In this document: positions 15,254-50,070 of the stretch, in pieces | Layout of the letters: each line of letters starts with the position of its first letter | How positions within the stretch are numbered: the stretch's first letter is position 1 | Assembly (NCBI GenBank): GCA_035485055.1 | Contig: DATHOJ010000083.1 | Span: 55,966 to 119,965, forward strand | Origin: Bryobacteraceae bacterium | GTDB lineage: Bacteria > Acidobacteriota > Terriglobia > Bryobacterales > Bryobacteraceae | DNA: 64,000 nt | Direction: 5' to 3' | Made by a program: the position numbers and the translations under genes | Notes under the pieces: model-generated | Told to the model about the DNA's origin: nothing | The model's database searches: none | Seen by the model: the letters and a program-made list of their open reading frames with translations, nothing else

Positions 15254-15544
15254 TCCGGTTCACTACGTCTTGATTTGCATCGCTCATCACCGCGAACAAG
15301 GATCGACCATTCGGATGCCGTTACGGTAGTTACCGCTTCCACACCTTCTTCCTTTTTTCTTCCTTCCGATGACTAGCTGAACTTAAAATAGCCACAGCTA
15401 CGGATGCTGCTCTTGTAAACTTGTCGGAAACAACTCACGCTTTGCTTGTAGTCCGCGTGGACCGGATTCAAAGCTCGGCTATAGGCTGCCTGCCCCGGCC
15501 TATAGCCCTCTGTTTCTGCCCAATTGGCAGTTTTCCTCAATCAT

Positions 15545-15567
15545 TCTCTGCAAAACGTGCTTGCAGA
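15545..15567 (-). terminator. hairpin downstream of the amidohydrolase gene (no U-tract)
   Basis: CTCTGCAA-7 nt-TTGCAGAG, 8-bp perfect stem, 22 nt past the stop codon. A second hairpin with a 10-bp stem lies at 15477-15507 (GGCTATAGGC/GCCTATAGCC). Confidence 0.3.
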
Positions 15568-15588
15568 GAGGCCACGAATACCTCAGCG

Positions 15589-16689
15589 TCAATGATGCGA
15601 AGCTAATTCTGGCTTTCGTTCATTCTGACTGAGACCGAGCAGGTGCTCTGCGTTGAGGTGCGCGATCTTCGCCTTGTCATTCAAGTTGATCGGCATCTGA
15701 TCAAAGAATTGGCGAGCGGCTTTCATGTCCCCGTATGGATAGTCCGTGGTGAATACGACGCGGTCAATGCCGACCGTGTTCGCCATGCCCAGATAGGCCT
15801 GGTACGCCAAACTCCAGCCGCTGTCCATCGCGCCAGGTTCTTGGCCCACGTACTCACCAGCGAGGATTCCACCATAGAAGTTCTCCCGAATGTATTCCTT
15901 GATGGTCCGCTTCAGCCCACCGTTCTTGCCTAACGGAAAAGAGTAGTCCATTCGCCACGCCGACCAACTCAATATTTCGAAATTGTGGCCCACGATAATC
16001 TGCAGGGCAGGAAACCGGTCGAACACGCCGCCGAGGATTAAGCGGAGGCAGTGTACCCCGGTGTCGATGTGCCAGCCGACTCCTGCAATTGACAGAAACG
16101 CAGATATTTCGGGAGAGAAGCCGCTGTAGTAGGCATCGACCACCGGCTTGGGCGGAATCTGGGGGTGTAGGTAGATGGGCACGCCGAGTGCCTCGGCGCA
16201 TTCAAACACTGGCCAGAAGAATTTGTCGTCAAAGTAACGCCCGTTGATGTTGCTGTTTATCAATGCGCCAACGAAGCGCAGGTCGCGAACGGCGCGCTCG
16301 AGTTCGTGGACTGCAGCCACGGGGTCGAGCATCGGTAGTGTGGCAAATCCGAGAAGCCGGTCTGGGTAATTAGAGACCGTAGCCGCCAGGGCGTCGTTCG
16401 CCTGTCTAGTTAGCTCCTTCGCAAGCGACGGTTCGAGGCCCTCTGCGTTCGGCGTAGGGTACGAGAGGATCGATACATCGATACCGGCGTCGTCCATAGC
16501 AGCGATCCGCCCCTCACCTAGATCATAGATGCCCGCTGGAAACCCGGTTTTTGAATCCTTGAACTTTCCCGTTTTTTTTAGTACATCGTACGCCAGCGCG
16601 ACCCTATCGTTCGCCTTATGAGCGGCTTCGTATATAACCGGAAGCCCGTAGTGTTCCTCTAACGCGATAATCTTCTTTGGATCCTTCAT
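15589..16689 (-). CDS. amidohydrolase family protein (amidohydrolase_2 / ACMSD-like metal-dependent hydrolase or decarboxylase)
   Basis: MKDPKKIIALEEHYGLP..., DDAGIDVSILSY, LGVPIYLHPQ, WHIDTGVH, FTTDYPYGDM. GGAGAA RBS before the ATG at 16689. The upstream 77 codons of the track ORF are leader sequence. Confidence 0.85.
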   Translation of the reverse strand: MKDPKKIIALEEHYGLPVIYEAAHKANDRVALAYDVLKKTGKFKDSKTGFPAGIYDLGEGRIAAMDDAGIDVSILSYPTPNAEGLEPSLAKELTRQANDALAATVSNYPDRLLGFATLPMLDPVAAVHELERAVRDLRFVGALINSNINGRYFDDKFFWPVFECAEALGVPIYLHPQIPPKPVVDAYYSGFSPEISAFLSIAGVGWHIDTGVHCLRLILGGVFDRFPALQIIVGHNFEILSWSAWRMDYSFPLGKNGGLKRTIKEYIRENFYGGILAGEYVGQEPGAMDSGWSLAYQAYLGMANTVGIDRVVFTTDYPYGDMKAARQFFDQMPINLNDKAKIAHLNAEHLLGLSQNERKPELASHH

Positions 16690-16759
16690 CACTTGATTCT
16701 CCTCAGTAAGGTCAGGATGTCTGAACGTTCCACCGTATCCAAGAACGTCCGCGCTCGTT

Positions 16760-17075
16760 AGCGACGCACGCCGAGTGCCAGGAGGCAGTCCCACAGTATC
16801 GCCTGAATTCAAAGGAGTTGTGAAATAGCGACCCGTGCCGGCATTCGTTGCGTGACGAATCTCTGACGTCAAGACGGAAAGCAGATTGACGCGGACCGCA
16901 GCCGCAATTCCGTAACGCATTCAACGGAGACTGTGAGACAAACCGGGAAGGCTCTGGCTCTGAAGGCCTCAGGCTGATCCAAGCGGCGACAGCGCTTTCC
17001 GTACTGTGTGCGATCAAGCAGGGAATCTGCGCGCTCCATTCGCGCAGAATGCGGACGGCCTCATCTTTCGCTCAC
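16760..17075 (-). repeat. copy A of a ~320-bp inverted homologous leader/promoter segment (partner at 19351-19667)
   Basis: Shared ordered blocks when read on the minus strand: GTGAGCGAAA, GCCGTCCG..TTCTGCGCGA, CTGTCGCCGCTTGG, GGTTTGTCTCAC, ACGGAATTGC, TTGACGTCAGAG, CACGCAACGAAT, TTGAATTCAGGCGAT, GGCACTCG. Confidence 0.75.
16765..16780 (-). promoter_or_regulatory. candidate sigma-54 (-24/-12) promoter for the amidohydrolase gene
   Basis: The minus strand reads TGGCACTCGGCGTGCG, i.e. GG-N10-GC with TGGCAC at -24. It lies about 75 nt upstream of the ATG at 16689. Confidence 0.45.
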
Positions 17076-17504
17076 GGCACTCTTCGAAGCGGTAGGACGG
17101 TTCGGACTAGGAGCAACGCTTCGGTTTTATGCTGCCCAGTGGGGGACATGCTCGCATGACCTCCGAGGGATGGCGTCCCAGTGCTCATTGGTACCCTTCT
17201 TAGTGGTCTGGTTCAACCGAGAGTACTGAGAGCAACTGGTCGCCGTCAACCGCTATAATTCCCAGCGGGAGCGGCAGAGTGTGCCATAGCCATGGATCAA
17301 TTCGCCAGATAAATCGTTAATGTGGCTCTCAAACAAAATGGAGCTTGCGAATTAATACTGTCACGGATGACGATATCGCGGCAAACGCTTCAAAAGCTAA
17401 ATCGGGATTATGAGTTTGTAAGGAATTTTTGGGGACTACGGGGAGAGAGTGTCGCTACGGCCTAACTGATGACTCTGGCGGCACGAAATCGGATACGGGA
17501 ATGC

Positions 17505-17695
17505 TTACTCCGCGGCTTTGAGTCGGTCGAGGATGCCAAGCTTTTTCATTTTATAAAGCAGAGTGGTGCGCGCGAGTCCTAGTCTGACTGCTGCACCTTC
17601 CGGTCCGCCGACCGTCCAACCCGACGCTTCCAATGTCTGCAAGATTAAACCCCGGTCGATTTCCTTCAGTGTCGTTGACTTCGATATCACAGCTA
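17505..17695 (-). pseudogene. C-terminal HTH_8 (Fis-type) tail of a sigma-54 activator, orphan fragment
   Basis: TTLKEIDRGLILQTLEASGWTVGGPEGAAVRLGLARTTLLYKMKKLGI followed by a stop. No AAA+ domain lies upstream on this strand. Confidence 0.65.
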
Positions 17696-18331
17696 CCGTT
17701 TCCAGATGATCCGACGGCCTCAGGCCGACCTGATCTTCGGCTGTCTTAACGAGTGGGAGGCGCAGCAGCACATCGACGAATTCTCTCCGGGCACACAGGA
17801 CATTCCAGACCGGCTGGTGATTCCCGAAAGGTTGTATGGTCGCGACCGCGAAATTGAGGTATTGCTTGCAGCTTTCGACCGCGTCGTGGCAGGTGGGCGG
17901 CCGGAGTTGGTGCTCGTTTCCGGAAACTCCGGAATCGGCAAGTCGTCGATCGTAAACGAACTCCACAAACCGCTTGTTCGTAACTCGCGGTCTGTTTCGC
18001 AGCAGATAAGTCCGACCAATATGAGAGACGTCCCCTATGCGACCTTGGCACAGGCCTTTCAGAGCCTCCTGCATCGGATTCTGACCAAGAGCGAGTCAGA
18101 ACTGAGCAAATGGCGCGACGCGCTTCGCGAAGCCTTAGGTCCGCACGGGCAGATCATTGTGGATCTGGTTCCCAAGCTGAAGTTCATCGTTGGAGAACAG
18201 CCCCTTGTTCCTGAAATTTCGCCACATGACGCGCAAGTTCGCTTTCAACAAGTCTGATTCGATTTATTGGCGTATTCGTGCGCCAAGAACATCCCCTCGC
18301 CTTATTCGTCGACGATTTGCAATGGCTCGCG
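17694..18331 (+). pseudogene. AAA_16 ATPase segment of a kinase-ATPase (STAND-like) regulator; fragment with a frameshift near 18250
   Basis: FQMIRRPQADLIFGCLNEWEAQQHIDEF...PERLYGRDREIEVLLAAFDRVVAGGRPELVLVSGNSGIGKSSIVNELHK...DVPYATLAQAFQSLLHRIL...WRDALREALGPHGQIIVDLVPKLKFIVGEQP...RFQQV, then in another frame LIRFIGVFVRQEHPLALFVDDLQWL. Confidence 0.8.
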
Positions 18332-19121
18332 CTCGAGGCCTACTGCTGTTTGGTACGGCTCCTCAGCGGTCTTGGCGAGGAGCTTGATGATGATGGCCGA
18401 AAGCATCCCCGGAATGCCCTTCGCCTGCCCGTCCGGCGGCGCGGGCTGCCGAGCGATATGGTAGTGCACGCAGTCCATCGGATCAGAAGCGATGAAGGGG
18501 AGACTCCCAGTCAGCATCTCGTACATCGTGACGCCCAAAGCATAGAGGTCGCTACGCAAATCGATGGAACGATTCATCCGTCCGGTCTGTTCCGGCGCCA
18601 TGTAGGGAAGGTTCCAGCGATGAACTCGGGTGGCCCGGGGGCTGTCGTTCGCGCGAAGACGCGAGGCGATTCCGAAACCCGTGAGCCAGGCATGGCCGGT
18701 CGCGGTGTCGACAAGGACATTCGAGGGTTTCAAATCTTTGTGGATCACCGAACGATTGTGTAACTGGTCAAGTGCGGTTGAAAGGCCAATGGCGAGACGC
18801 AAACATTGCTCTATTTCCATCGGGCCTCGAATGAGACGATGGAGAAACTCACCACCCGGATCCTCGAGCACTAGGACTTTCTGTCCGTTGCACTGCGAAA
18901 GAGCAAGGGGTCGAACTGCCCATGTTGGATCGAAATCGTGGCGGAGCGGATATTCGTGCTCCATCTTCTTGAGGCTTTCCAGTCGGAGGCGTGTCGAGGT
19001 AAGGGTCAGCAGAAGAACAGAAGGCGCTTCCGCTGTCTTTGTACGTGCTCGGTTCCTCATCCTCACGGAGGCATTCCCGCATATATTCTGACATTTCCAC
19101 AATGGGTGGCCTCTCCACCAT
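18332..19121 (-). pseudogene. Ser/Thr protein-kinase-like domain of the same regulator family; fragment with a frameshift near 19030
   Basis: YMRECLREDEEPS (one frame), then MEHEYPLRHDFDPTWAVRPLAL...VLVLEDPGGEFL...VIHKDLKPSNVLVD...WLTGFGIASRL...YMAPEQTGRMNRSIDLRSDLYALGVTMYEMLTGSLPF...LLAKTAEEPYQTAVGLE. Confidence 0.8.
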
Positions 19122-19350
19122 CGGGACACTTCATTGACTTTCGTATGGGCGCCTACGCGAATCGACTTCAACAGACGCCGCATTGATGCACGCATACGGA
19201 CACTATCACCGGTTATAAATAAACCAGCGACATGATGTCATCCGGTAATGCGTGCGCAGTCTTCCGTTGGGGCAGCGTAAGCCGAAAAGTGCCCTGGTTC
19301 GGAGCGCCCGGCCTTGAGCTCAACCCGACGCTCACCGCCGGAAGAGCGCG

Positions 19351-19667
19351 GTGAGCGAAATGAGAGCCGTCCGTTTTCTGCGCGAGTGCTGCGCGCGGTT
19401 TCTCGATCTCATCGCCTTCAACGGGGAGAGAACTGTCGCCGCTTGGTTTAGCATCGGCCGGGTACTTTTAGAGAAGTCTTCCTGGTTTGTCTCACCTCAG
19501 TTCAATTCGTGACGGAATTGCTCTTGCGCGTCGCGTCAGTACAGATCTTGGGCCTTTGACGTCAGAGGCTTGACACGCAACGAATACTGGCGAGATTCAC
19601 CATTTCAAAACCCTTTTGAATTCAGGCGATCCTACGACGCTGCTTCCCGGCACTCGAAATGCATCGA
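19351..19667 (+). repeat. copy B of the ~320-bp inverted homologous leader/promoter segment (partner at 16760-17075)
   Basis: The same ordered blocks as copy A, read on the plus strand. By eye roughly two-thirds of positions are identical. Confidence 0.75.
19648..19663 (+). promoter_or_regulatory. candidate sigma-54 (-24/-12) promoter upstream of the mdlC-like gene
   Basis: CGGCACTCGAAATGCA, i.e. GG-N10-GC, at the position homologous to the copy A element. It is about 300 nt upstream of the ATG at 19961. Confidence 0.4.
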
Positions 19668-19903
19668 TTGGTGGCGGTTGGGAGGACTTCCAACCGGCGC
19701 TGGGACGCCTTCCGGAAGCGACTGCTGCATCTGGCGAGGTGGGCATTTTGATGGTTTGGAGAGGTGAGCTGTGAGCTATCGAGCAACCCAGACAAGAACA
19801 CGAAGAAGCTCTATAAGGAAGTTCAGAAGATGTTCAAGAACTTTCCGCCGAGGGCATCGTAATACTGCTGCGTACTTTCACTCAAGCTTCGTGTCACGGC
19901 TGA

Positions 19904-22301
<2,398 letters not shown>

Positions 22302-25295: not shown

Positions 25296-25762
25296 TGTCG
25301 GAGGTCTCCTTCTATCGGCAGAAGATATGCTGCGAGAATTCTTGTCGCAGCAATATTCACAACGACGCTCTAGTGCAATTCGAGAGCCATTATGGGGGGT
25401 TTTATTTCAACGGGGTTTTCTGAGAGTTCTAAGCCCTCACTTCGCAACCAGACACGAGGTGTCGATCTTTCGACACGCCGCCATCGTCTTAATTCGATAA
25501 GCCGACAAGCAGGCTGGTTGAGACCCGCGGTCAACTGACATCCCATCGACCCGCCGCTCTCGAACTGTGAACGCACTGCGGTAAACCGGCGTCTTGCCGG
25601 GCTAACGACGGGATCCTCGTTCGGATTGAACGTTTCCCGTGATTCGAGAAAAGTGTATAAAGTGAGCGACGCCCAGACGAAGAAGCCAGGCGATTTGGAA
25701 AGGGCTTCCTATCCAAGTTGGAGGGACGGCCATGAAGGCTCCCTAGGTATGAAGCCTTCCTT

Positions 25763-35654: not shown

Positions 35655-36689
35655 TCATAGATCGGAGTTCCCTTCCATATCTTGCACGGTCTTCCGCTGA
35701 ACGATCCCGAGTTTTTGCATGCGTGACGCCAAAGTAGTTCGCGGCAACCCGAGGCGCGACGCTGCGCCGTTCGGGCCCGATACGACGCCGTTGGTTTCCT
35801 TGAGGACGTGAAGAATGTGGCTCCGCTCCGTTTCCGCCAGCATTCGTCTCATCGCGCCGGTTGGAGGTGATGCAGCCCTCAGCTCCTCGGTCGAAATCTC
35901 CACCGTAGTACCGGATGAGCGGATAACCGCGCGCTCGATGACATTTTGTAGTTCCCGAACATTGCCGGGCCACGTGTGGCGCCGGAGACATTTGAGTGCC
36001 TCGTCCGCAATCTGACTCACGTCCTTATTCATTTGCGATGAGAGTATGCGGATAAAGTGCTTGGTAATGAGCGGGATGTCATCCAGTCGGTCCCTCAGGG
36101 GTGGGATCAGGATGGGAAACACGTTCAACCGGTAGAAAAGATCCGCCCGGAATCGCCGCTGCGAGACCATTTGCTCCAAGTCAGAATTCGTGGCAGCGAT
36201 CACGCGCACATCGACGCGGATCGTGCATCCGCCGCCAACACGCTCGCACTCCCGTTCCTGCAGCACCCGCAGGAGCTTCGGCTGCAACTCTAGCGGCAAT
36301 TCTCCGATTTCATCAAGAAAAAGCGTCCCGCCATGCGCTTGCTGAAAACGGCCGTCGGTCCGCGACAATGCCCCCGTGAATGCCCCGCGCTCATGGCCAA
36401 ACAACTCATTTTCGATCAGCCCGGCAGGCATTGCGGCGCAGTTCACCTTCACATAACGGCCGTGTTTGCGGGGACTTTCGTCGTGAACGGCCCTCGCGAC
36501 CAGTTCCTTGCCGGTGCCGGTTTCTCCTAAAATCAGAACCACTGAATTGGTCGGGGCGACCACCTCCAGCGCGCGCCAAACAGACCGGAGGCCCGGATTG
36601 GAGCGGATGAGAGCAGAGGTAGACAACTCTGGTACAGGCCCCATTGAGCTTGTTGCGATGAGGTCCTTCAAATCATCGTGCATAATCAT
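35655..36689 (-). CDS. sigma-54 enhancer-binding protein lacking any N-terminal sensory/receiver domain (PspF/HrpR-like architecture)
   Basis: About 30 residues, then [69 protein letters not shown]-terminal [23 protein letters not shown]. Confidence 0.9.
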   Translation of the reverse strand: MIMHDDLKDLIATSSMGPVPELSTSALIRSNPGLRSVWRALEVVAPTNSVVLILGETGTGKELVARAVHDESPRKHGRYVKVNCAAMPAGLIENELFGHERGAFTGALSRTDGRFQQAHGGTLFLDEIGELPLELQPKLLRVLQERECERVGGGCTIRVDVRVIAATNSDLEQMVSQRRFRADLFYRLNVFPILIPPLRDRLDDIPLITKHFIRILSSQMNKDVSQIADEALKCLRRHTWPGNVRELQNVIERAVIRSSGTTVEISTEELRAASPPTGAMRRMLAETERSHILHVLKETNGVVSGPNGAASRLGLPRTTLASRMQKLGIVQRKTVQDMEGNSDL

Positions 36690-44654: not shown

Positions 44655-44992
44655 GACAACCTCAGAATACGGGTTCCAGGGCCTCACGGGCGTGGAGATT
44701 TCGTAGAGTTAATGTAGCGAGCCGTGGCTTCGGGTTCGCATATCGCATTCTGGCCTCTCGAGCAGATGCGGAGGACGCCGTCCAGGGCTGCTTCCTCAAA
44801 GCGGCGTGAGGCGGATCGCACCCTAAGGACCCTACACTGCGTCAATCGCTTTCCGGGGGGAGCACCATCGTTGCCAACCGGATTGTTCGCATAAGCCGGG
44901 ATGCGACGGTCAGGCCCGGTTATACGAGTCTTGAATTGCGGAGTGAACCTCTTGGGGTCGAAAATGAAAAGGGGGTTAATCCCAAACGCGAA

Positions 44993-47557
44993 ATGAGCTC
45001 AGAGATCTCTATTGGGACGCCACACAAAGGGCAACGCTATCAGGCCTTGCTACGAATTAGCGAAGCACTTTCCGGATGCAGCGAGCCTGAGGAGCTGACG
45101 AGAATCCTCTCGGAACAACTGGGCGAGTTCCTCGACTTCTTCCAGTTCTACATCATTGTTTATAAGGAAAATTCCAGCGAAGTCGAATGGGCGGTGGTGG
45201 GGTCCGAGAAGAGCTTGATCAGTGCGTACGCCGATGTGCCGGTACATGAGCGGCCGTCCTGGCGTGCTTACGCTACCCAGGAACCCTTTCACATCGCAGA
45301 TTGGGACGCAGACGAAAGAGTGCCGGCCCGGCTTAAGCAAGGCATTACGGGGCAAGGTCTTGAAATTGGGCCGCTGGTTTTTGTGCCCCTCACAACACCG
45401 CATCGACGCCTGGGTGCCCTGGGAATGTCCGGACCCCCTGGAGCCGCCTACAGTAGCGAAGACATTGGCTTCCTACGCCTGATCGGGCGAGTGGTTGCGT
45501 TCGCGATAGACGATAATTTCAATCTTAGGCAGGCCGAGGCCGCCCAACTAGAATTACAACGCCAGAACTGGCGGCTGCAAAACAGCGAACGAGAGCTCCG
45601 GGACGTCATTGAAACCATTCCGGTCATGGCCTGGTCGGCAGCAGCAGACGGCGCGGCTGAATTCTTCAACAGGCGGTGGTTGGACTACGCTGGCCTTTCC
45701 GCGGATCAGGTGCGTGGTTGGGGCTGGATCAGCGCTGTCCATCCGGATGATCTGAACAGGCTCGCGGACTACTGGCGCGGAAGGCTGGCTTCCGGGCAGT
45801 CAGGTGAGATCGAAGCGCGACTGCGCCGTTTCGACGGGGTGTACCGCTGGTTTCTATTTCGTGCGACTCCGTCACTGGACCACGGAAGGGTCGTGAGATG
45901 GTACGGAACGAATACCGACATCGAAGCGCGCAAGACTGCGGAGCAAGCGATTATTACTCAGAATAGCAGGCTCCAGCTTCTTCTAAAGCTAACGAAGGAG
46001 ATCACTTCAAACCTGGAGCGTCGCGAATTGCTGCGGGCAATCTCAGCGAGTATTCGTGAAGTCATGGATTGGGACGCGGTCCATATTTCGCTCGCCGACC
46101 CGGCTACGGGTAAATTCCGCCTGTATGCCTTGGATTTTCCAGAGGGCAAGGGCTTTGTCAAGGAGGAAATGCTCATCGAGTCGGTCGGCGCCTGTAAGCG
46201 AGCTCTGGAGACGCTGCAACCGACAACCAGGAATACTGCCAATCCCCAGGAATTCCCACCCGATCTATACAAGTTGATGGTGGCGGAGGGGCTTAAGACG
46301 CAATGTGTGATACCGCTTGTCAGCCGCGGCCAAGTTGTCGGAGCTCTGACCATTAACCGCAGCACCGATGAAGCCTTCCTGCCGGATGAGATCGATTTTC
46401 TCAAAGAAGCATCCGGTCAAATAGCCATCGCTATCGAAAATTGCGTGGCCTTCAGCGAGATTTCCGAGCTGAAAGAGAAGCTTGCGCAAGAGAAGCTATA
46501 TCTCGAAGAAGAAATCCGGGGCGACCTGAATTTCGAGGAGATTGTGGGGAATAGTCCGGCGCTCAAGCAAGTACTCCAGCTCGTCGAAACCGTCGCGTCC
46601 AGCGATTCAACCGTTCTACTACTCGGCGAAACGGGAACCGGCAAGGAGTTGATCGCCCGTGCGATTCACGACCGTAGCCGTCGAAAAAACCGCACCTTCG
46701 TAAAGGTGAACTGTGCGGCAATACCGACTGGCCTCCTCGAGAGCGAATTATTTGGTCACGAAAAGGGCGCTTTCACCGGGGCTATTTCCCGGAAGATTGG
46801 CCGGCTCGAATTAGCCGATCAAGGCACGCTGTTTCTAGACGAAGTTGGTGACATCCCGATTGAAATTCAACCGAAACTGTTGCGGGCACTTCAAGAGCAG
46901 GAGTTCGAACGGCTGGGAAGCACGCAAACGCGTAAGGTGAATGTTCGCCTCGTAGCCGCCACCAACCGCGATCTCGAAGATATGATCGCGGCGCGTGAAT
47001 TTCGGAGCGATCTGTATTACCGGCTGAACGTGTTTCCGATTCGAATACCACCGTTGCGGGAGCGCAAGCAAGATATTCCGCTGCTGGTGAGTTATTTCGT
47101 TCAGAAGTTTGCGAAACAAATGCAGAAGGAGATAAAGGGCATTCCCGGGGCTGTCATGAAAGCGCTAACCGCCTGGGAATGGCCCGGAAACGTTCGCGAA
47201 CTGGCAAATTTCGTCGAACGGGCTGTGATCCTTACTCGGGGCCAGTCGCTGGCGGCTCCCCTAGCCGAACTGCGAAAAGCGACGGTCGACGAATCCAAGG
47301 GCACCGTAAAAAATGCCGCGACAAATAACGATAATATTGCCCGTATCGTGAGGGAGACGATCAACGCACTACATGGAAATAGCAGTACCGCAGGCGATCG
47401 TGTCCGAAAACAACGCGACGAGATCGTGCGCGCGATCACCGAGACAAAGGGGCGAGTGGGAGGTGCGGAAGGCGCCGCCGCGCGCATGCGGATGAACCGG
47501 ACAACTCTCCTGGCCCGCATGAAGAAACTTGGCATCAATCCCCGCGATTATTCCTGA
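44993..47557 (+). CDS. sigma-54-dependent activator with GAF-PAS-GAF sensory region
   Basis: [11 protein letters not shown] (GAF), [27 protein letters not shown]...VHPDD...[10 protein letters not shown] (PAS), second GAF ...[10 protein letters not shown], then [80 protein letters not shown]. Confidence 0.9.
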
Positions 47558-47707
47558 CACTCGACTCGACCGAGTACTGTCAAAGCCCCTTTGACACTCC
47601 CTCCCCTCCCAGAGTAATTCCCACTTTTCGCATTGAAAACAGGGCGGTTCCAGCCGCAGATCCATGGTACGTGGGTTGCGCTTTCCCAAGTCAAGGATAC
47701 GTGTGGC

Positions 47708-48001
47708 ATGTTGAAGATCACGGTTATTGAGGACCAACGCCAGCGACGAGTAATCGTTGAAGGCAAGCTCATCGCGCCTTGGGCCGCTGAACTCACGAGT
47801 GCTTACCAAATTGCCGGAACAGATCTTCAAAATCGCGAACTGATTATCGATCTGAGGAGCGTAACGGCCATCAGTACGGAGGGCGAAACGGTACTGCTGC
47901 AGTTGATACGCGGCAAAGCGAAATTCCTCTGCGGTGTGTATATGAAGGAAGTCGTGGCCCATCTCGCCCGAAAGACCGGTGAAAACCGTGGTGACCGCTA
48001 A
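47708..48001 (+). CDS. small STAS-like protein (97 aa)
   Basis: MLKITVIEDQRQRRVIVEGKLIAPWAAELTSAY...RELIIDLRSVTAISTEGETVLLQLIRGKAKF has the pattern of an anti-sigma-antagonist/STAS fold. This assignment is tentative. Confidence 0.45.
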   Translation: MLKITVIEDQRQRRVIVEGKLIAPWAAELTSAYQIAGTDLQNRELIIDLRSVTAISTEGETVLLQLIRGKAKFLCGVYMKEVVAHLARKTGENRGDR

Positions 48002-48462
48002 ATGTCACGGTGCGTTGACAGTTTGACACTGCGCAATCATCCGGGATCCGCCGCCAGCGTAAAGGTCAAGAATGTCAAGCGTTTATCGCAATGGCAGAGT
48101 TTGGTCCGCGCTTTGCCTCCTTACTTACTGCGCGGCTTTCCCGCATAGCCAGGGATCTGACGGTACACATAGAAAGGACGCAACATGGACTGACCGATTC
48201 ATCAGCTTGCGAAAAAGCGACTCCTCTTTTTCTTCGGGTACGGGAGAAGTGCGGAAGGTAGATCCGGACGCAAAGGAGGCGCTGGAGGCTGGCATTTGAA
48301 TCGTGAACCATTGCACCCAACCTGGCACCAAGGCCTGGTTGGCTTCTGCTCATCTGCGATCACGTTGAGAAGCGGTTCAAATTTGAAGCCTCTTCTACAC
48401 GCAGGACCTTCTAAAAGCCCGAAAGCCGGTCTACAGGGAAAATAAGAGCAAATCGAAAACGC

Positions 48463-49236
48463 ATGCGATCGAATCTGTCTCCTACGATTCCAACCCCACG
48501 CAGAATACCCTCCAAGACAGACCCTCCCGAGTTCGTTTTGGAGGCGATCCGTGAAGGCGCGGAATTCACCCTTTACCGCGCTCGTCAGCACGGTAACCTA
48601 TCGCCTGTCCTGATAATGGTTCCCACCGCAGAACCACCGTTGCCGCAGAGCCTGCGATGCCTTGAGCACGAATGCTCGCTCGCAGGCGAACTTGAGCCCG
48701 CGTGGACGGCGAAGCCCATGACGTTAACGTGTTACGAAGGACGGACAAACCTTGTTCTCGCCGACCCTGGCGGCGAGCCCCTGGACCTCATGCTTGAGCA
48801 GGACAAAGAGCAGCCACTCGATCCAGCTCGTTTTCTACGCAGCGCAATTAGCCTGGTGAACGCGCCAGGGCACGTGCATCAGCGTGGTCTGATCCATAAA
48901 GACATCGAGCCCGAGAACGTGTTCGTCGACGGCGCCGGCCACTTATGGCTTACCGGCTTTAGCATCGCATCCTGGCTGCCACGCGAGCGCCAGACACCCG
49001 CGCCGCCCGAAATCAGTGCCGGCGCCCTTGCCTACATGTCCCCTGAACAGACAGGGCGCATGAATCGATCGATCGATTCCCGCAGCGATCTCTATTCTCT
49101 AGGCGTCACTTTATACGAAATGCTTACGGGCGTGCTGCCGTTCGCCGCCGCGGACCCCCTTGGAGTGGGCCGTTCACGACGGGCCGGCGGAAACTGCGTC
49201 TTTGATCAGCAGAAGCGCAGGAACAAAATGGTCTGA
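48463..49236 (+). pseudogene. kinase-like domain of a kinase-AAA16 regulator, truncated after subdomain IX
   Basis: FVLEAIREGAEFTLYRARQ..., LEHECSLAGELEPAWTAKPMTL, LVLADPGGEPLD, LIHKDIEPENVFVD, WLTGFSIAS, YMSPEQTGRMNRSIDSRSDLYSLGVTLYEMLTGVLPFAAADPL. The frame is then lost, and the crotonase gene starts 28 nt later. Confidence 0.75.
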
Positions 49237-49263
49237 GAGATTAAATACACAAAGGAGAAAATC

Positions 49264-50070
49264 ATGCAAACACTTCGAGACAACTATTTGGCTGCCTACC
49301 GCAACCTGAAGCTCACCCGAGACGCCGAAGGCGTGTTGGTGGTCGAATTCCATAGCAACGGAGGACCGCTTACATTCACGGCAGAGGCCCATACCGAGGT
49401 TGTCGACGCCTTCTACAGGATTTCACAAGATCGAGCGAATAAGATCGTAATCCTCACGGGCGCGGGAGGGGACTTCATGATTGGTGTCGACTGGTCGTCT
49501 TTCAAAAACGTATCGGATCCCGGCGTCTGGAGCCAGACCCATGACGAAGGCGTTCAGGTTCTGGAAAACCTAGCCAACATTCGCGTGCCGGTCATCGCAG
49601 CCATCGAGGGACGCGCGCATATCCATTCCGAGTACGCGCTAATGGCCAATGTCATTGTGGCCGCCGAGGGTGCGACCTTCCAGGACGTGGGCCACTTCGC
49701 CGCCGGGGTTGTGCCTGGTGATGGCATTTTTACCGCGTGGAGCTATCGCGCCGGTGCGGGGCGGGCGGAAGCTTTCCTGCTCAACCCACGGCCAGTTCCG
49801 GCGCGTACCGCTTATGAATGGGGGGTAGTTGCCGAGGTCGTTCCGAACGGTCAGGCCCTTAGCCGGGCGCGTGAGTTGGCGGCGCTCTACCTGAAGGCTC
49901 CGGAGGTGACGCGCCGCGACACGCGTGTGCATTTCATTCAACCCCTGAAAGAGCGCCTTGTGCGGGAAGTTGGTTATGGACTTTCGCTGGAAGGAGCCTC
50001 GGCCGCCGACCTCGTGAAATCAATGCAGGCGAAGAGTGACCCGGTTGCCCCTCAAAGGAAGTCTACATAG
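49264..50070 (+). CDS. enoyl-CoA hydratase/isomerase (crotonase) family protein
   Basis: AAGGAG RBS. LKLTRDAEGVLVVEFHSNGGPLTFTAEAHTEVVDAFYRISQDRANKIVILTGAGGDFM...VPVIAAIEGRA. Confidence 0.85.
   Translation: MQTLRDNYLAAYRNLKLTRDAEGVLVVEFHSNGGPLTFTAEAHTEVVDAFYRISQDRANKIVILTGAGGDFMIGVDWSSFKNVSDPGVWSQTHDEGVQVLENLANIRVPVIAAIEGRAHIHSEYALMANVIVAAEGATFQDVGHFAAGVVPGDGIFTAWSYRAGAGRAEAFLLNPRPVPARTAYEWGVVAEVVPNGQALSRARELAALYLKAPEVTRRDTRVHFIQPLKERLVREVGYGLSLEGASAADLVKSMQAKSDPVAPQRKST

What the first reader, a model, noticed from the sequence alone, without database searches (positions are those of the whole stretch)
16760..19667. Inverted ~320-bp homologous segments bracket the broken regulator and face outward to two catabolic genes
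16760-17075 (read on the minus strand) and 19351-19667 (plus strand) share at least nine ordered conserved blocks, including GTGAGCGAAA, CTGTCGCCGCTTGG, GGTTTGTCTCAC, ACGGAATTGC, TTGACGTCAGAG, CACGCAACGAAT and TTGAATTCAGGCGAT. Copy A leads into the amidohydrolase_2 gene, whose ATG is at 16689. Copy B leads into the mdlC-like gene, whose ATG is at 19961. The homology is non-coding and much longer than a single operator. Long inverted repeats around a 2.3-kb segment are also a substrate for inversion by homologous recombination.
Basis: seen in the sequence. Interest (0 to 1): 0.65.

Follow-up and report, generated by a model that had tools for sequence, protein, structure and literature searches.

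The report
Paired sigma-54 promoter-enhancer modules
The two inverted ~320-bp segments are diverged copies of a conserved sigma-54 promoter with its upstream activator sites, a module that soil Acidobacteriota reuse in front of many different catabolic and transport genes; this is an ordinary kind of regulatory DNA, not an RNA element or an inversion switch.

Summary
Window 16760-17085 (minus) and 19341-19667 (plus) align at 72% identity over about 340 columns, with a score of 193 against 18±2.4 for shuffles. They are non-coding and are the only two copies in the window.

Each copy ends in a sigma-54 -24/-12 promoter: TGGCAC-N5-GTGC at 16780-16766 and CGGCAC-N5-ATGC at 19648-19662. Homology stops a few bases past the -12 element, so nearly all of it lies upstream of the predicted transcript.

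A pattern scan plus an HMM search found 55 copies (50 distinct sequences) in soil metagenome contigs and Acidobacteriota/Terriglobales MAGs. They share three features:
- an inverted repeat, CGTCAAT-N12-TTGACGTCA;
- a fixed 84±1 nt distance from that repeat to -24;
- GG-N10-GC in register in 47 of 50.

The module precedes unrelated genes (Amidohydro_2, ECH operons, porin/MFS). It usually sits next to sigma-54 activator genes. It recurs as divergent pairs.

Rfam finds nothing, RNAalifold predicts no pairs, and there is no codon periodicity and no terminal repeats.

The "broken regulator" is debris of a sensor kinase/activator system, not one gene.

Inversion between the repeats is unsupported: the longest exact run is 16 bp, and three assemblies share one orientation.

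Copy B and its TPP gene look decayed. An intact candidate activator lies at 44936-47557.

The parts
16744..17085 (-). Copy A of the promoter-enhancer module. The core is 16744-16925 and the lineage-specific upstream half is 16926-17085.
   Evidence: nhmmer with the 182-nt family core gives E=1.9e-49. Alignment to copy B.
19341..19684 (+). Copy B of the module. The upstream half is 19341-19499 and the core is 19500-19684. It looks like a decaying copy.
   Evidence: nhmmer gives E=6.3e-44. It is the only one of the 47 copies with an in-register -24/-12 to have CGGCAC at -24, and the only one of the 44 with a measured half-site spacer to have 15 nt.
16766..16780 (-). Sigma-54 -24/-12 promoter of copy A, TGGCACtcggcGTGC. 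The predicted start is near 16754, giving a 65-nt leader to the ATG at 16689.
   Evidence: GG-N10-GC is in register in 47 of 50 family copies. The start site is inferred.
19648..19662 (+). Sigma-54 -24/-12 promoter of copy B, CGGCACtcgaaATGC. The predicted start is near 19674, giving a ~287-nt leader to the ATG at 19961.
   Evidence: The start site is inferred.
16864..16892 (-). Putative activator-binding site (UAS) of copy A: GCGTCAAT-N12-TTGACGTCA, about -110 to -138.
   Evidence: 4 matches in the window against 0.18 expected. The right half-site is recognisable in all 50 copies. The distance to -24 is 84±1 nt in 46 of 47. Binding is inferred.
19533..19564 (+). Putative UAS of copy B: GCGTCAGT-N15-TTGACGTCA, with a 3-nt longer spacer.
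16804..16860 (-). Conserved stretch between the UAS and the promoter in copy A: ATTCG-N8-CGAAT (16843-16860), an A/T-rich stretch CATTTCACAAC..TTT, and the palindrome TGAATTCA (16804-16811). It is a likely second protein site or bending region.
   Evidence: The function is inferred.
19569..19624 (+). The same conserved stretch in copy B (CACGCAACGAAT and TGAATTCA at 19617-19624).
17027..17047 (-). Far-upstream palindrome CTGCGCG-N7-CGCGCAG (about -283). Its copy-B partner is at 19378-19398. It is conserved only in the long-form subfamily and its role is unknown.
15589..16689 (-). Intact Amidohydro_2 gene driven by copy A.
   Evidence: Pfam E=5.9e-34. Homologues are up to 93% identical. Contigs at 100% identity occur in a soil metatranscriptome.
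19961..21006 (+). TPP-enzyme (mdlC-like) pseudogene behind copy B. It is frameshifted and cut short by the next gene.
   Evidence: Split ORFs of 89, 107 and 137 aa. The same split is called in two other assemblies. tblastn hits fall in two frames.
17505..17711 (-). C-terminal HTH_8 remnant of a sigma-54 activator gene.
   Evidence: Pfam HTH_8. It is 70-73% identical to the C-termini of intact short activators in L014, L035, L037 and L045.
17724..18328 (+). AAA_16 fragment (linker through Walker B) on the opposite strand. It probably comes from a second, paralogous sensor-kinase gene.
   Evidence: Identities of this piece and of the kinase piece to 118 homologues are anticorrelated, r=-0.43.
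18326..19130 (-). Kinase-like N-terminal fragment of the sensor kinase, with a frameshift near its 5' end. It is divergent from copy B.
   Evidence: It is 80% identical to the intact 1894+-aa ORF in L048, which is likewise divergent from a module copy.
44936..47557 (+). Intact GAF-PAS-GAF-Sigma54_activat-HTH activator. It is a candidate trans-activator of the modules.
   Evidence: Pfam. It is 82% identical over its full length to the L027 activator, which lies next to a module copy. The HTH is nearly identical. The regulatory link is inferred.

Best explanation
The two segments are paralogous copies of a DNA-level cis-regulatory module. The module is a sigma-54 (-24/-12) promoter together with about 150 bp (about 300 bp in the long form) of upstream activator and architectural sites. 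A bacterial enhancer-binding protein with a Fis-type HTH is proposed to bind the inverted repeat CGTCAAT-N12-TTGACGTCA, centred near -125. The conserved A/T-rich stretch with the TGAATTCA palindrome between -100 and -45 would let the DNA loop. ATP hydrolysis by the activator would then open the sigma-54 holoenzyme complex at TGGCAC-N5-(A/T/G)TGC. In this genome, copy A drives the intact Amidohydro_2 gene and copy B drove a TPP-enzyme operon. The sensor-kinase and activator genes that lay between the copies have been reduced to fragments by deletions and rearrangement. Copy B and its TPP gene are decaying. Copy A may still be served by the intact activator at 44936-47557. What is shown: the homology, the promoter and inverted-repeat motifs with their fixed spacing, the family, and its association with activator genes. 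What is inferred: binding, looping, the start sites, and which activator acts.
For: (1) Both copies end in GG-N10-GC promoters, and A-B homology stops within a few bases of -12. (2) A pattern scan found 37 metagenome loci, and a second pattern found 3 true copies in Acidobacteriota/Terriglobales MAGs. (3) nhmmer found further diverged copies that neither pattern could have selected. They retain the inverted repeat, TGGCAC-N5-TTGCT and the spacing, while the intervening sequence drifts. (4) GG-N10-GC is in register in 47 of 50 copies. The UAS-to-(-24) distance is 84±1 nt in 46 of 47, and the half-site spacer is 12-13 nt in 42 of 44. (5) Neighbouring genes encode Sigma54_activat+HTH_8 proteins carrying the GAFTGA motif, a stand-alone receiver, and giant Pkinase-AAA_16-GAF-PAS-HisKA kinases. 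The window's HTH_8 remnant is about 70% identical to those activators. (6) Core identity to copy A is 0.72-0.81 for 25 of the 27 other copies compared, whether the downstream gene is an amidohydrolase homologue or unrelated; the two most diverged copies are at 0.63-0.64. (7) Divergent back-to-back pairs recur in L020, L021, L023, L029, L044 and L045. (8) Amidohydro_2 orthologues in contigs without the module (L002, L006) also carry -24/-12 promoters. (9) There is no Rfam hit, no consensus RNA structure and no coding signal. (10) An experimental precedent exists: three sigma-54 promoters of one catabolic cluster share UASs at -136 to -120 and need IHF (PMC10084136).
Against: There is no experimental evidence for any step: no mapped 5' end, no binding data, and rpoN itself is not visible in the window. 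The metatranscriptome contigs cover only part of the amidohydrolase gene. The high conservation of the pattern-selected copies is partly ascertainment. The upstream half (16926-17085 and 19341-19499) has no assigned function. Copy B has an atypical C at -26 and a 15-nt spacer, so it may be inactive. Three different activator architectures neighbour the module, so the cognate activator is not identified.
Confidence: 0.85

Rival explanations
1. The inverted repeats are the arms of an invertible segment. Homologous recombination between them would flip 17086-19340 and switch gene expression.
For: The geometry fits: inverted arms flank 2.3 kb. One 30-nt 'opposite strands' joint, 16846/19593, appears in unitigs of two soil runs.
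Against: The arms are only 72% identical, and the longest exact run is 16 bp. From general knowledge, that is below the roughly 20-30 bp of perfect identity RecA-dependent recombination needs. Each arm is at least as close to copies in other genomes (0.75-0.78) as to its partner (0.72), so there is no sign of homogenisation. The window, ENA contig L001 (100% identical over 21 kb) and a JGI contig share one orientation. In run X1, 100%-identity unitigs cross both inner borders in the reference orientation. The single joint lies in the conserved core, where depth is 10-15 times higher because other genomes' copies pile up. Flipping the interior would not change what each outward-facing promoter drives.
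Confidence: 0.03
2. The segments encode a structured RNA, either a long leader or riboswitch or a small RNA shared by the two genes.
For: The conservation is long and non-coding, and several palindromes could form hairpins.
Against: cmscan against Rfam 15 at E up to 10 finds nothing. RNAalifold on 33 non-redundant copies predicts 0 pairs. Where palindrome half-sites change in diverged copies, the change is not compensated. The conserved part lies upstream of the -12 element, and A-B homology ends near the predicted start. No RNA contigs lie on the modules (weak evidence).
Confidence: 0.03
3. The segments are copies of a non-autonomous mobile element (MITE-like or an IS remnant) that happens to carry a promoter.
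For: The same ~180-330-bp sequence stands in front of unrelated genes in many contigs. An integrase-like fragment occurs a few kb away in the window and an IS66 fragment in the kinase-homologue contig L004, which holds no copy of the module.
Against: There are no terminal inverted repeats; the best terminal matches are 5-7 nt. Only two copies occur in 64 kb. Where a gene could be called downstream, it starts within roughly 15-310 nt (most within 80 nt) on the strand the promoter faces. Copies are diverged rather than near-identical.
Confidence: 0.05
4. The homology is a functionless scar of an old inverted segmental duplication, or a decayed coding sequence.
For: The neighbourhood is full of pseudogenes and rearranged fragments. 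Copy B looks degenerate.
Against: There is no period-3 signal in the A-B mismatches or across the family, and 31 of 50 copies are closed in all forward frames. No amidohydrolase remnant lies behind copy B. Family-wide retention of motifs and exact spacing in front of intact genes shows constraint.
Confidence: 0.04

Closest known systems
Sigma-54-dependent catabolic promoters with shared upstream activating sequences, for example the three RedR1/RedR2-controlled promoters of the resorcinol cluster of Aromatoleum anaerobium (PMC10084136). From general knowledge, Pu/Ps of XylR is another example.
   Same: There is a -24/-12 promoter. There is an activator site about 110-140 bp upstream. A conserved intervening region is where IHF acts in the known cases. 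Several promoters in one catabolic cluster share the same upstream sites. The activator genes are encoded alongside.
   Different: Nothing here has been tested experimentally. The conserved stretch is much longer (about 180 bp in all copies and about 320 bp in a subfamily) than the alignable UAS, IHF and -24/-12 islands described there. The host is Acidobacteriota. The neighbouring sensors are unusual (Pkinase-AAA_16-GAF-PAS histidine kinases with a stand-alone receiver and a receiver-less activator).
Putative mobile promoters, or 'promoter reuse' (Matus-Garcia, Nijveen and van Passel 2012; PMC3575422).
   Same: Highly similar upstream sequence occurs in front of non-homologous genes, within and between genomes, without a known mobile element. 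The best 50-nt A-B window is 84% identical, which meets their criterion of at least 80% over at least 50 nt.
   Different: Their survey took positions -150 to -50 from the start codon in complete genomes and mostly found pairs at about 92% identity. Here the copies are older (72-80%). The promoter class and the likely activator family are identifiable. The family was found in metagenomes.
FhlA-type activators (GAF-Sigma54_activat-HTH_8) and their targets (from general knowledge).
   Same: The activators next to the module have GAF/PAS sensor domains and the HTH signature GG..GAA..LG..RTTL..(K/R)MKKLGI.
   Different: The binding-site sequence was not compared with FhlA sites. The regulated genes are different (amidohydrolases, hydratases, porins). 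Orthology to FhlA was not tested.

Membership tests
Sigma-54 (-24/-12) promoter | GG and GC dinucleotides exactly 10 nt apart within TGGCAC-N5-TTGCW | tested here: met
   Copy A is TGGCACtcggcGTGC and copy B is CGGCACtcgaaATGC. 47 of 50 family copies have GG-N10-GC in register. The commonest forms are TGGCAC (29) and ATGCT (31).
Sigma-54 (-24/-12) promoter | A cognate enhancer-binding protein (AAA+ with GAFTGA, plus a DNA-binding domain) is encoded in the genome | tested here: met
   Window ORFs 2-919, 35655-36689 and 44936-47557 have Sigma54_activat+HTH_8, and there is the remnant at 17505-17711. Activators with GAFTGA lie next to the module in L013, L014 and L027, and GAF-PAS N-terminal ORFs of the L027-type activator family lie next to it in L011 and L032.
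Sigma-54 (-24/-12) promoter | An upstream activating sequence about 80-150 bp upstream, typically an inverted repeat | tested here: met
   CGTCAAT-N12-TTGACGTCA sits 84±1 nt upstream of -24 in 46 of 47 copies. It is enriched in the window, with 4 matches against 0.18 expected. Binding itself was not tested.
Sigma-54 (-24/-12) promoter | rpoN is present, and transcription depends on sigma-54 and starts about 12 nt after the GC | not testable with these tools
   rpoN is not in the 64-kb window. RNA contigs cover only 15660-16227. No 5'-end data exist.
Putative mobile promoters / promoter reuse | At least 80% identity over at least 50 nt upstream of genes that are not homologous | tested here: met
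   The best 50-nt A-B window is 84% identical. The downstream genes are Amidohydro_2 and a TPP enzyme. Across contigs the core is 72-81% identical over 182 nt before unrelated genes.
Invertible DNA switch | Both orientations of the segment exist in the population | tested here: not met
   Three assemblies show one orientation, and 100%-identity unitigs match the reference orientation. Only short unitigs were available, so the power of this test is limited.
Invertible DNA switch | Near-identical inverted repeats, or a site-specific recombinase with its sites | tested here: not met
   The arms are 72% identical with a longest exact run of 16 bp. No recombinase gene lies within or beside the segment.
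Riboswitch or structured RNA leader | A conserved secondary structure with covariation, located inside the transcript | tested here: not met
   Rfam gives no hit at E up to 10. RNAalifold gives 0 pairs on 33 sequences. The conserved part is upstream of -12.
MITE or IS-derived repeat | Terminal inverted repeats, target-site duplications, and dispersed high copy number | tested here: not met
   The best terminal inverted match is 5-7 nt. There are two copies in 64 kb. Target-site duplications were not examined. Whole-genome copy number could not be tested.

The most novel reading that the evidence does not exclude
The module may be a portable sigma-54 enhancer-promoter cassette specific to Terriglobales/Acidobacteriota. 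On this reading it has been copied as a unit of about 180-330 bp in front of unrelated operons, often as back-to-back pairs. Its near full-length conservation and rigid 84-nt phasing would then reflect a multi-protein nucleoprotein complex rather than a single activator site. That would make it a tractable natural example of regulon growth by promoter propagation in a phylum whose transcriptional regulation is, to my knowledge, little studied.
Probability: 0.25. Interest if true: 0.6.

Novelty: new member of a known kind. Interest (0 to 1): 0.4.

Why it matters
The finding assigns a concrete, testable regulatory logic to a set of catabolic and transport operons in soil Acidobacteriota, bacteria that are abundant but hard to cultivate. 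The logic is sigma-54 plus a defined upstream inverted repeat at fixed phasing. The work also supplies a 182-nt profile that can be used to chart this regulon in genomes and metagenomes. It is a clear natural case of the same promoter-enhancer module being reused before unrelated genes. For this window specifically, it shows that the locus is a decaying regulatory island, with kinase and activator debris and a TPP pseudogene. It is not a recombination switch or an RNA element.

Tried and rejected
- **Rfam.** A scan of 15500-21000 at E up to 10 found nothing.
- **Coding remnant.** Stops occur in all frames, and there is no period-3 signal in the A-B mismatches or in family column entropy. ORFs that read through the module and fuse to the amidohydrolase in L020, L021 and L048 are taken as chance open frames.
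- **Amidohydrolase remnant behind copy B.** None was found, so this possible trace of a duplicated operon is absent.
- **Orthologous upstream regions of close Amidohydro_2 homologues (L002/L003, L006, L007, L008-L010).** None carries the module. L002 and L006 have other -24/-12 promoters.
- **Kinase homologue contigs L004 and L005.** These are paralogues with histidine-kinase outputs and carry no module.
- **Genome scan hits L051 and L052.** These are chance matches to the pattern and are not recovered by the profile.
- **Extension of A-B homology beyond 17085/19341.** It is visible through L036, L040 and L048, but the direct alignment scores 20 against 15±2.3, and 25 of 500 shuffles reach that score.
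- **Inversion test with public reads.** Only short Logan unitigs were available. One ambiguous 30-nt joint lies inside the conserved core.
- **Start-site test with metatranscriptomes.** Contigs cover only part of the amidohydrolase gene.
- **Sigma-70 promoter and terminator scan.** Counts were no higher than in shuffles.
- **Terminal inverted repeats.** None were found.
- **Synonymous-site comparison with the core.** My first attempt failed because the downstream amidohydrolases belong to different paralogue classes. It was replaced by protein identities.
Full report
**Observation**

The claimed inverted homology is real. The repeat finder returns a collinear series of inverted arms between 16762-17085 and 19341-19666. 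A local alignment of the reverse complement of 16760-17085 with 19341-19667 scores 193, against 18.3±2.4 (max 28) for shuffles. blastn gives E=7e-39. The global alignment has 72% identity over 341 columns. Its longest exact run is 16 bp, and it has seven exact runs of 10 bp or more (p=0.02 for clustering). Both segments have stops in every frame and no period-3 bias in their mismatches. blastn and nhmmer find no third copy in the 64-kb window.

The window sequence is 100% identical over 21 kb to an independent ENA soil contig. A JGI contig carries the same gene calls. The broken genes around the repeats are therefore real and not sequencing errors.

**Anatomy of the two copies**

Each copy ends, on its outward side, in a sigma-54-type promoter.
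- Copy A has TGGCACtcggcGTGC at 16780-16766 on the minus strand. The predicted start is near 16754, 65 nt before the Amidohydro_2 ATG at 16689.
- Copy B has CGGCACtcgaaATGC at 19648-19662. The predicted start is near 19674, about 287 nt before the TPP-enzyme ATG at 19961.

A-B homology fades within a few bases after the -12 element. Almost all of the repeat therefore lies upstream of the transcript it would drive.

Upstream, both copies carry the following features:
- the inverted repeat GCGTCA(A/G)T-N12/15-TTGACGTCA (A: 16892-16864; B: 19533-19564);
- the block CACGCAACGAAT;
- an A/T-rich stretch;
- the palindrome TGAATTCA (A: 16811-16804; B: 19617-19624);
- much further up, the palindrome CTGCGCG-N7-CGCGC(A/G)G (A: 17047-17027; B: 19378-19398).

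**Relatives elsewhere**

A scan of metagenome contigs used a pattern made from three blocks shared by A and B. It returned 37 loci in 29 sequence clusters, none identical to the window. A differently composed pattern on species-representative genomes returned five loci. Three are true copies: an Acidobacteriota MAG, a Terriglobales MAG, and one MAG labelled Verrucomicrobiia. Two are chance matches.

A 182-nt profile built from the shared core then found additional, more diverged copies in the same loci. Neither pattern could have selected these. The diverged copies show what is actually constrained. They keep the inverted repeat with its TGACGTCA half, TGGCAC-N5-TTGCT, a short TA(A/G)AGAG motif just after -12, and the spacing. 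The sequence between these islands drifts.

Over 50 distinct copies:
- 47 have GG-N10-GC in register;
- the distance from TTGACGTCA to -24 is 84±1 nt in 46 of 47;
- the half-site spacer is 12-13 nt in 42 of 44.

Copy B is the only copy with C instead of T before the GG, and the only one with a 15-nt spacer.

The upstream half of the window repeats (GTGAGCGAAA, CTGTCGCCGCTTGG, GGTTTGTCTCAC) is shared only by a subfamily: L013, L022, L024, L033, L036, L038, L040 and L048.

In soil DNA runs, unitig depth over the two cores is 10-15 times that of the flanks. This fits many related copies in the community.

**Gene context**

The module points at different genes in different contigs:
- Amidohydro_2 paralogues of at least two classes;
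- an ECH_1, isochorismatase, Amidohydro_3, MIP operon;
- an OprB porin followed by an MFS transporter;
- other genes.

Core identity to copy A is 0.72-0.81 for 25 of the 27 other copies compared, whether or not the downstream protein is related to the window's amidohydrolase; the two most diverged copies are at 0.63-0.64.

Next to the module lie sigma-54 activator genes of three kinds:
- a short Sigma54_activat+HTH_8 protein, preceded by a stand-alone receiver and a giant Pkinase-AAA_16-TPR-GAF-PAS-HisKA-HATPase kinase (L014, L035, L037, L045);
- a GAF-PAS-GAF-Sigma54_activat-HTH protein divergent from the module (L027, and by their GAF-PAS N-terminal ORFs, L011, L019 and L032);
- a 362-aa activator just upstream on the same strand (L013, L039).

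The three activators read in full (L013, L014, L027) carry GAFTGA.

Divergent back-to-back pairs of the module, 400-650 bp apart, recur in L020, L021, L023, L029, L044 and L045. Same-strand repeats occur in L015, L024, L034 and L037. A pair of outward-facing copies is thus a common layout for this family. The window differs only in having regulator debris between them.

**The "broken regulator"**

The interval 17505-19195 is not one gene.
- 17505-17711 (minus) is the HTH_8 C-terminus of a short activator. It is 70-73% identical to those of L014, L035, L037 and L045.
- 18326-19130 (minus) is the kinase-like N-terminus of the sensor kinase, with a frameshift near its start. It is 80% identical to an intact ORF of more than 1894 aa in the Acidobacteriota MAG locus L048, which is likewise divergent from a module copy.
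- 17724-18328 lies on the plus strand and encodes the linker and AAA_16 Walker A to Walker B region.

Across 118 homologues, identity to the kinase piece and identity to the AAA_16 piece are anticorrelated (r=-0.43). The nearest relatives of one piece are not those of the other. The plus-strand piece therefore probably comes from a second, paralogous kinase gene rather than from a simple in-place inversion.

The TPP gene behind copy B is frameshifted and truncated by the next gene. The Amidohydro_2 gene is intact. Contigs at 100% identity to it occur in a soil metatranscriptome.

An intact GAF-PAS-GAF-Sigma54 activator at 44936-47557 is 82% identical over its full length to the L027 activator next to a module. 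Its HTH is almost identical. It is a candidate for keeping copy A in use.

**Mechanism**

I conclude that the two segments are paralogous copies of a sigma-54 promoter with its enhancer region. The proposed sequence of events is as follows. An activator dimer or hexamer binds the inverted repeat near -125. The conserved intervening DNA, possibly with an IHF-like protein or a second bound factor at ATTCG-N8-CGAAT and TGAATTCA, brings it to the closed complex at -24/-12. ATP hydrolysis then opens the promoter.

The motifs, their fixed phasing, their family-wide retention and their association with activator genes are shown. Binding, looping, start sites and the identity of the activator are inferred from established knowledge of sigma-54 systems. 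The RedR1/RedR2 system is a tested precedent: three catabolic sigma-54 promoters share UASs at -136 to -120 and require IHF (PMC10084136). Copy B's two unique deviations, together with its dead downstream gene, suggest relaxed constraint.

**Rivals**

- Structured RNA. This is rejected. Rfam finds nothing at E up to 10. RNAalifold predicts no pair in 33 non-redundant copies. Half-site changes are uncompensated. The conserved part lies upstream of the start.
- Inversion by homologous recombination. This is unsupported. The arms are 72% identical with at most 16 bp of exact identity. Each arm is at least as similar to copies in other genomes (0.75-0.78) as to its partner (0.72). Three assemblies and the 100%-identity unitigs show only the reference orientation. 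A single 30-nt strand-switch joint falls in the piled-up conserved core and is uninformative. Flipping the interior would also not alter what the outward-facing promoters drive.
- MITE-like element. This is unlikely. There are no terminal repeats and only two copies in 64 kb. Where a gene could be called downstream, it starts within about 15-310 nt (most within 80 nt) on the strand the promoter faces.
- Coding scar. This is rejected by the lack of codon periodicity and by closed frames.

**Comparison with what is known, and novelty**

The closest known things are sigma-54 catabolic promoters sharing UASs within a cluster and the "putative mobile promoter / promoter reuse" phenomenon (PMC3575422). 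The best 50-nt A-B window, at 84% identity, meets the criterion used in that survey.

One full-text search for Acidobacteria together with sigma-54, enhancer-binding protein and UAS terms returned no description of this module. That is weak evidence of absence.

I rate it a new member of a known kind. It is a well-defined, apparently undescribed sigma-54 promoter-enhancer family in soil Acidobacteriota. It is notable for its length, its rigid phasing and its reuse before unrelated genes, but it is mechanistically ordinary.

The more novel reading is that the module is a portable cassette whose full-length conservation reflects a larger nucleoprotein complex. This is not excluded, and I give it about 0.25.

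Noticed in passing
window 17505-19195: The 'broken regulator' is a composite. It holds an activator C-terminus (minus strand), an AAA_16 piece on the plus strand, and a kinase-like piece (minus strand). Identities of the last two to 118 homologues are anticorrelated (r=-0.43), so they probably derive from two paralogous sensor-kinase genes. The ~15-nt stretch encoding GLE(R)DL occurs at both junctions (about 17714-17731 plus strand and 18328-18345 minus strand).
   Followed up: partly
window 25375-25473 (minus strand): There is another sigma-54-like promoter, TGGCTCtcgaaTTGC (25389-25375). A different palindrome, GTGTCGAaagaTCGACAC, lies about 70 nt upstream, ahead of the Alginate_exp to bicupin operon (25295 down to 22598). 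It is probably a separate activator/promoter pair.
   Followed up: no
window 47665-48120: A sigma-54-like site, TGGTACgtgggTTGC (47665-47679), precedes a small ORF. At about 48014-48117, TTGACAGTTTGACAC is followed by TGGTCCgcgctTTGC. The same upstream motif type stands before the 93%-identical Amidohydro_2 gene in contig L006. The closest amidohydrolase relative thus uses a different sigma-54 promoter type, one that is also present in this window.
   Followed up: partly
window 48463-50070: The ECH_1 gene at 49264-50070 is 76-81% identical to the ECH genes that follow the module in other contigs. Here it is preceded by a kinase-like fragment (48463-49236) and has no detectable module copy. This is more evidence of rearrangement in the region.
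   Followed up: partly
L002 10635-12123; L035 and L045 (my orientation): A stand-alone Response_reg ORF lies immediately upstream of a receiver-less Sigma54_activat+HTH_8 ORF in several unrelated contigs. In L002 the two ORFs overlap in different frames. This could be a genuine split NtrC-like arrangement or a recurrent frameshift.
   Followed up: no
L020 838-2250, L021 4479-5891 (my orientation) and L048 759-2222 (stored coordinates): Open frames run through the whole module and fuse in-frame to the amidohydrolase, giving 470-487 aa. Several database homologues of 400-464 aa (for example P0019, P0035, P0050) may be such over-extended gene calls.
   Followed up: partly
window 16735-16881 and 19528-19674 (soil DNA runs X1-X4): Unitig depth at 90% or higher likeness is 10-15 times that of the flanks over the two module cores. 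It is similarly high over the kinase motif region 18499-18645 and over part of the amidohydrolase gene. These stretches are therefore shared by many genomes in the same soils.
   Followed up: no
window 15660-16227 (metatranscriptome run X19): RNA-derived contigs 100% identical to the Amidohydro_2 gene are present, so the gene appears to be expressed in situ. Nothing at 97% or higher lies on the modules, the regulator debris or the TPP pseudogene.
   Followed up: partly
L041 10507-10687 and L046 2912-3093: Two copies keep the UAS and the TGAATTCA part but have lost the -24/-12 promoter, which is replaced by unrelated sequence. They still lie upstream of an OprB porin gene. The enhancer half may have been joined to another promoter.
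   Followed up: no
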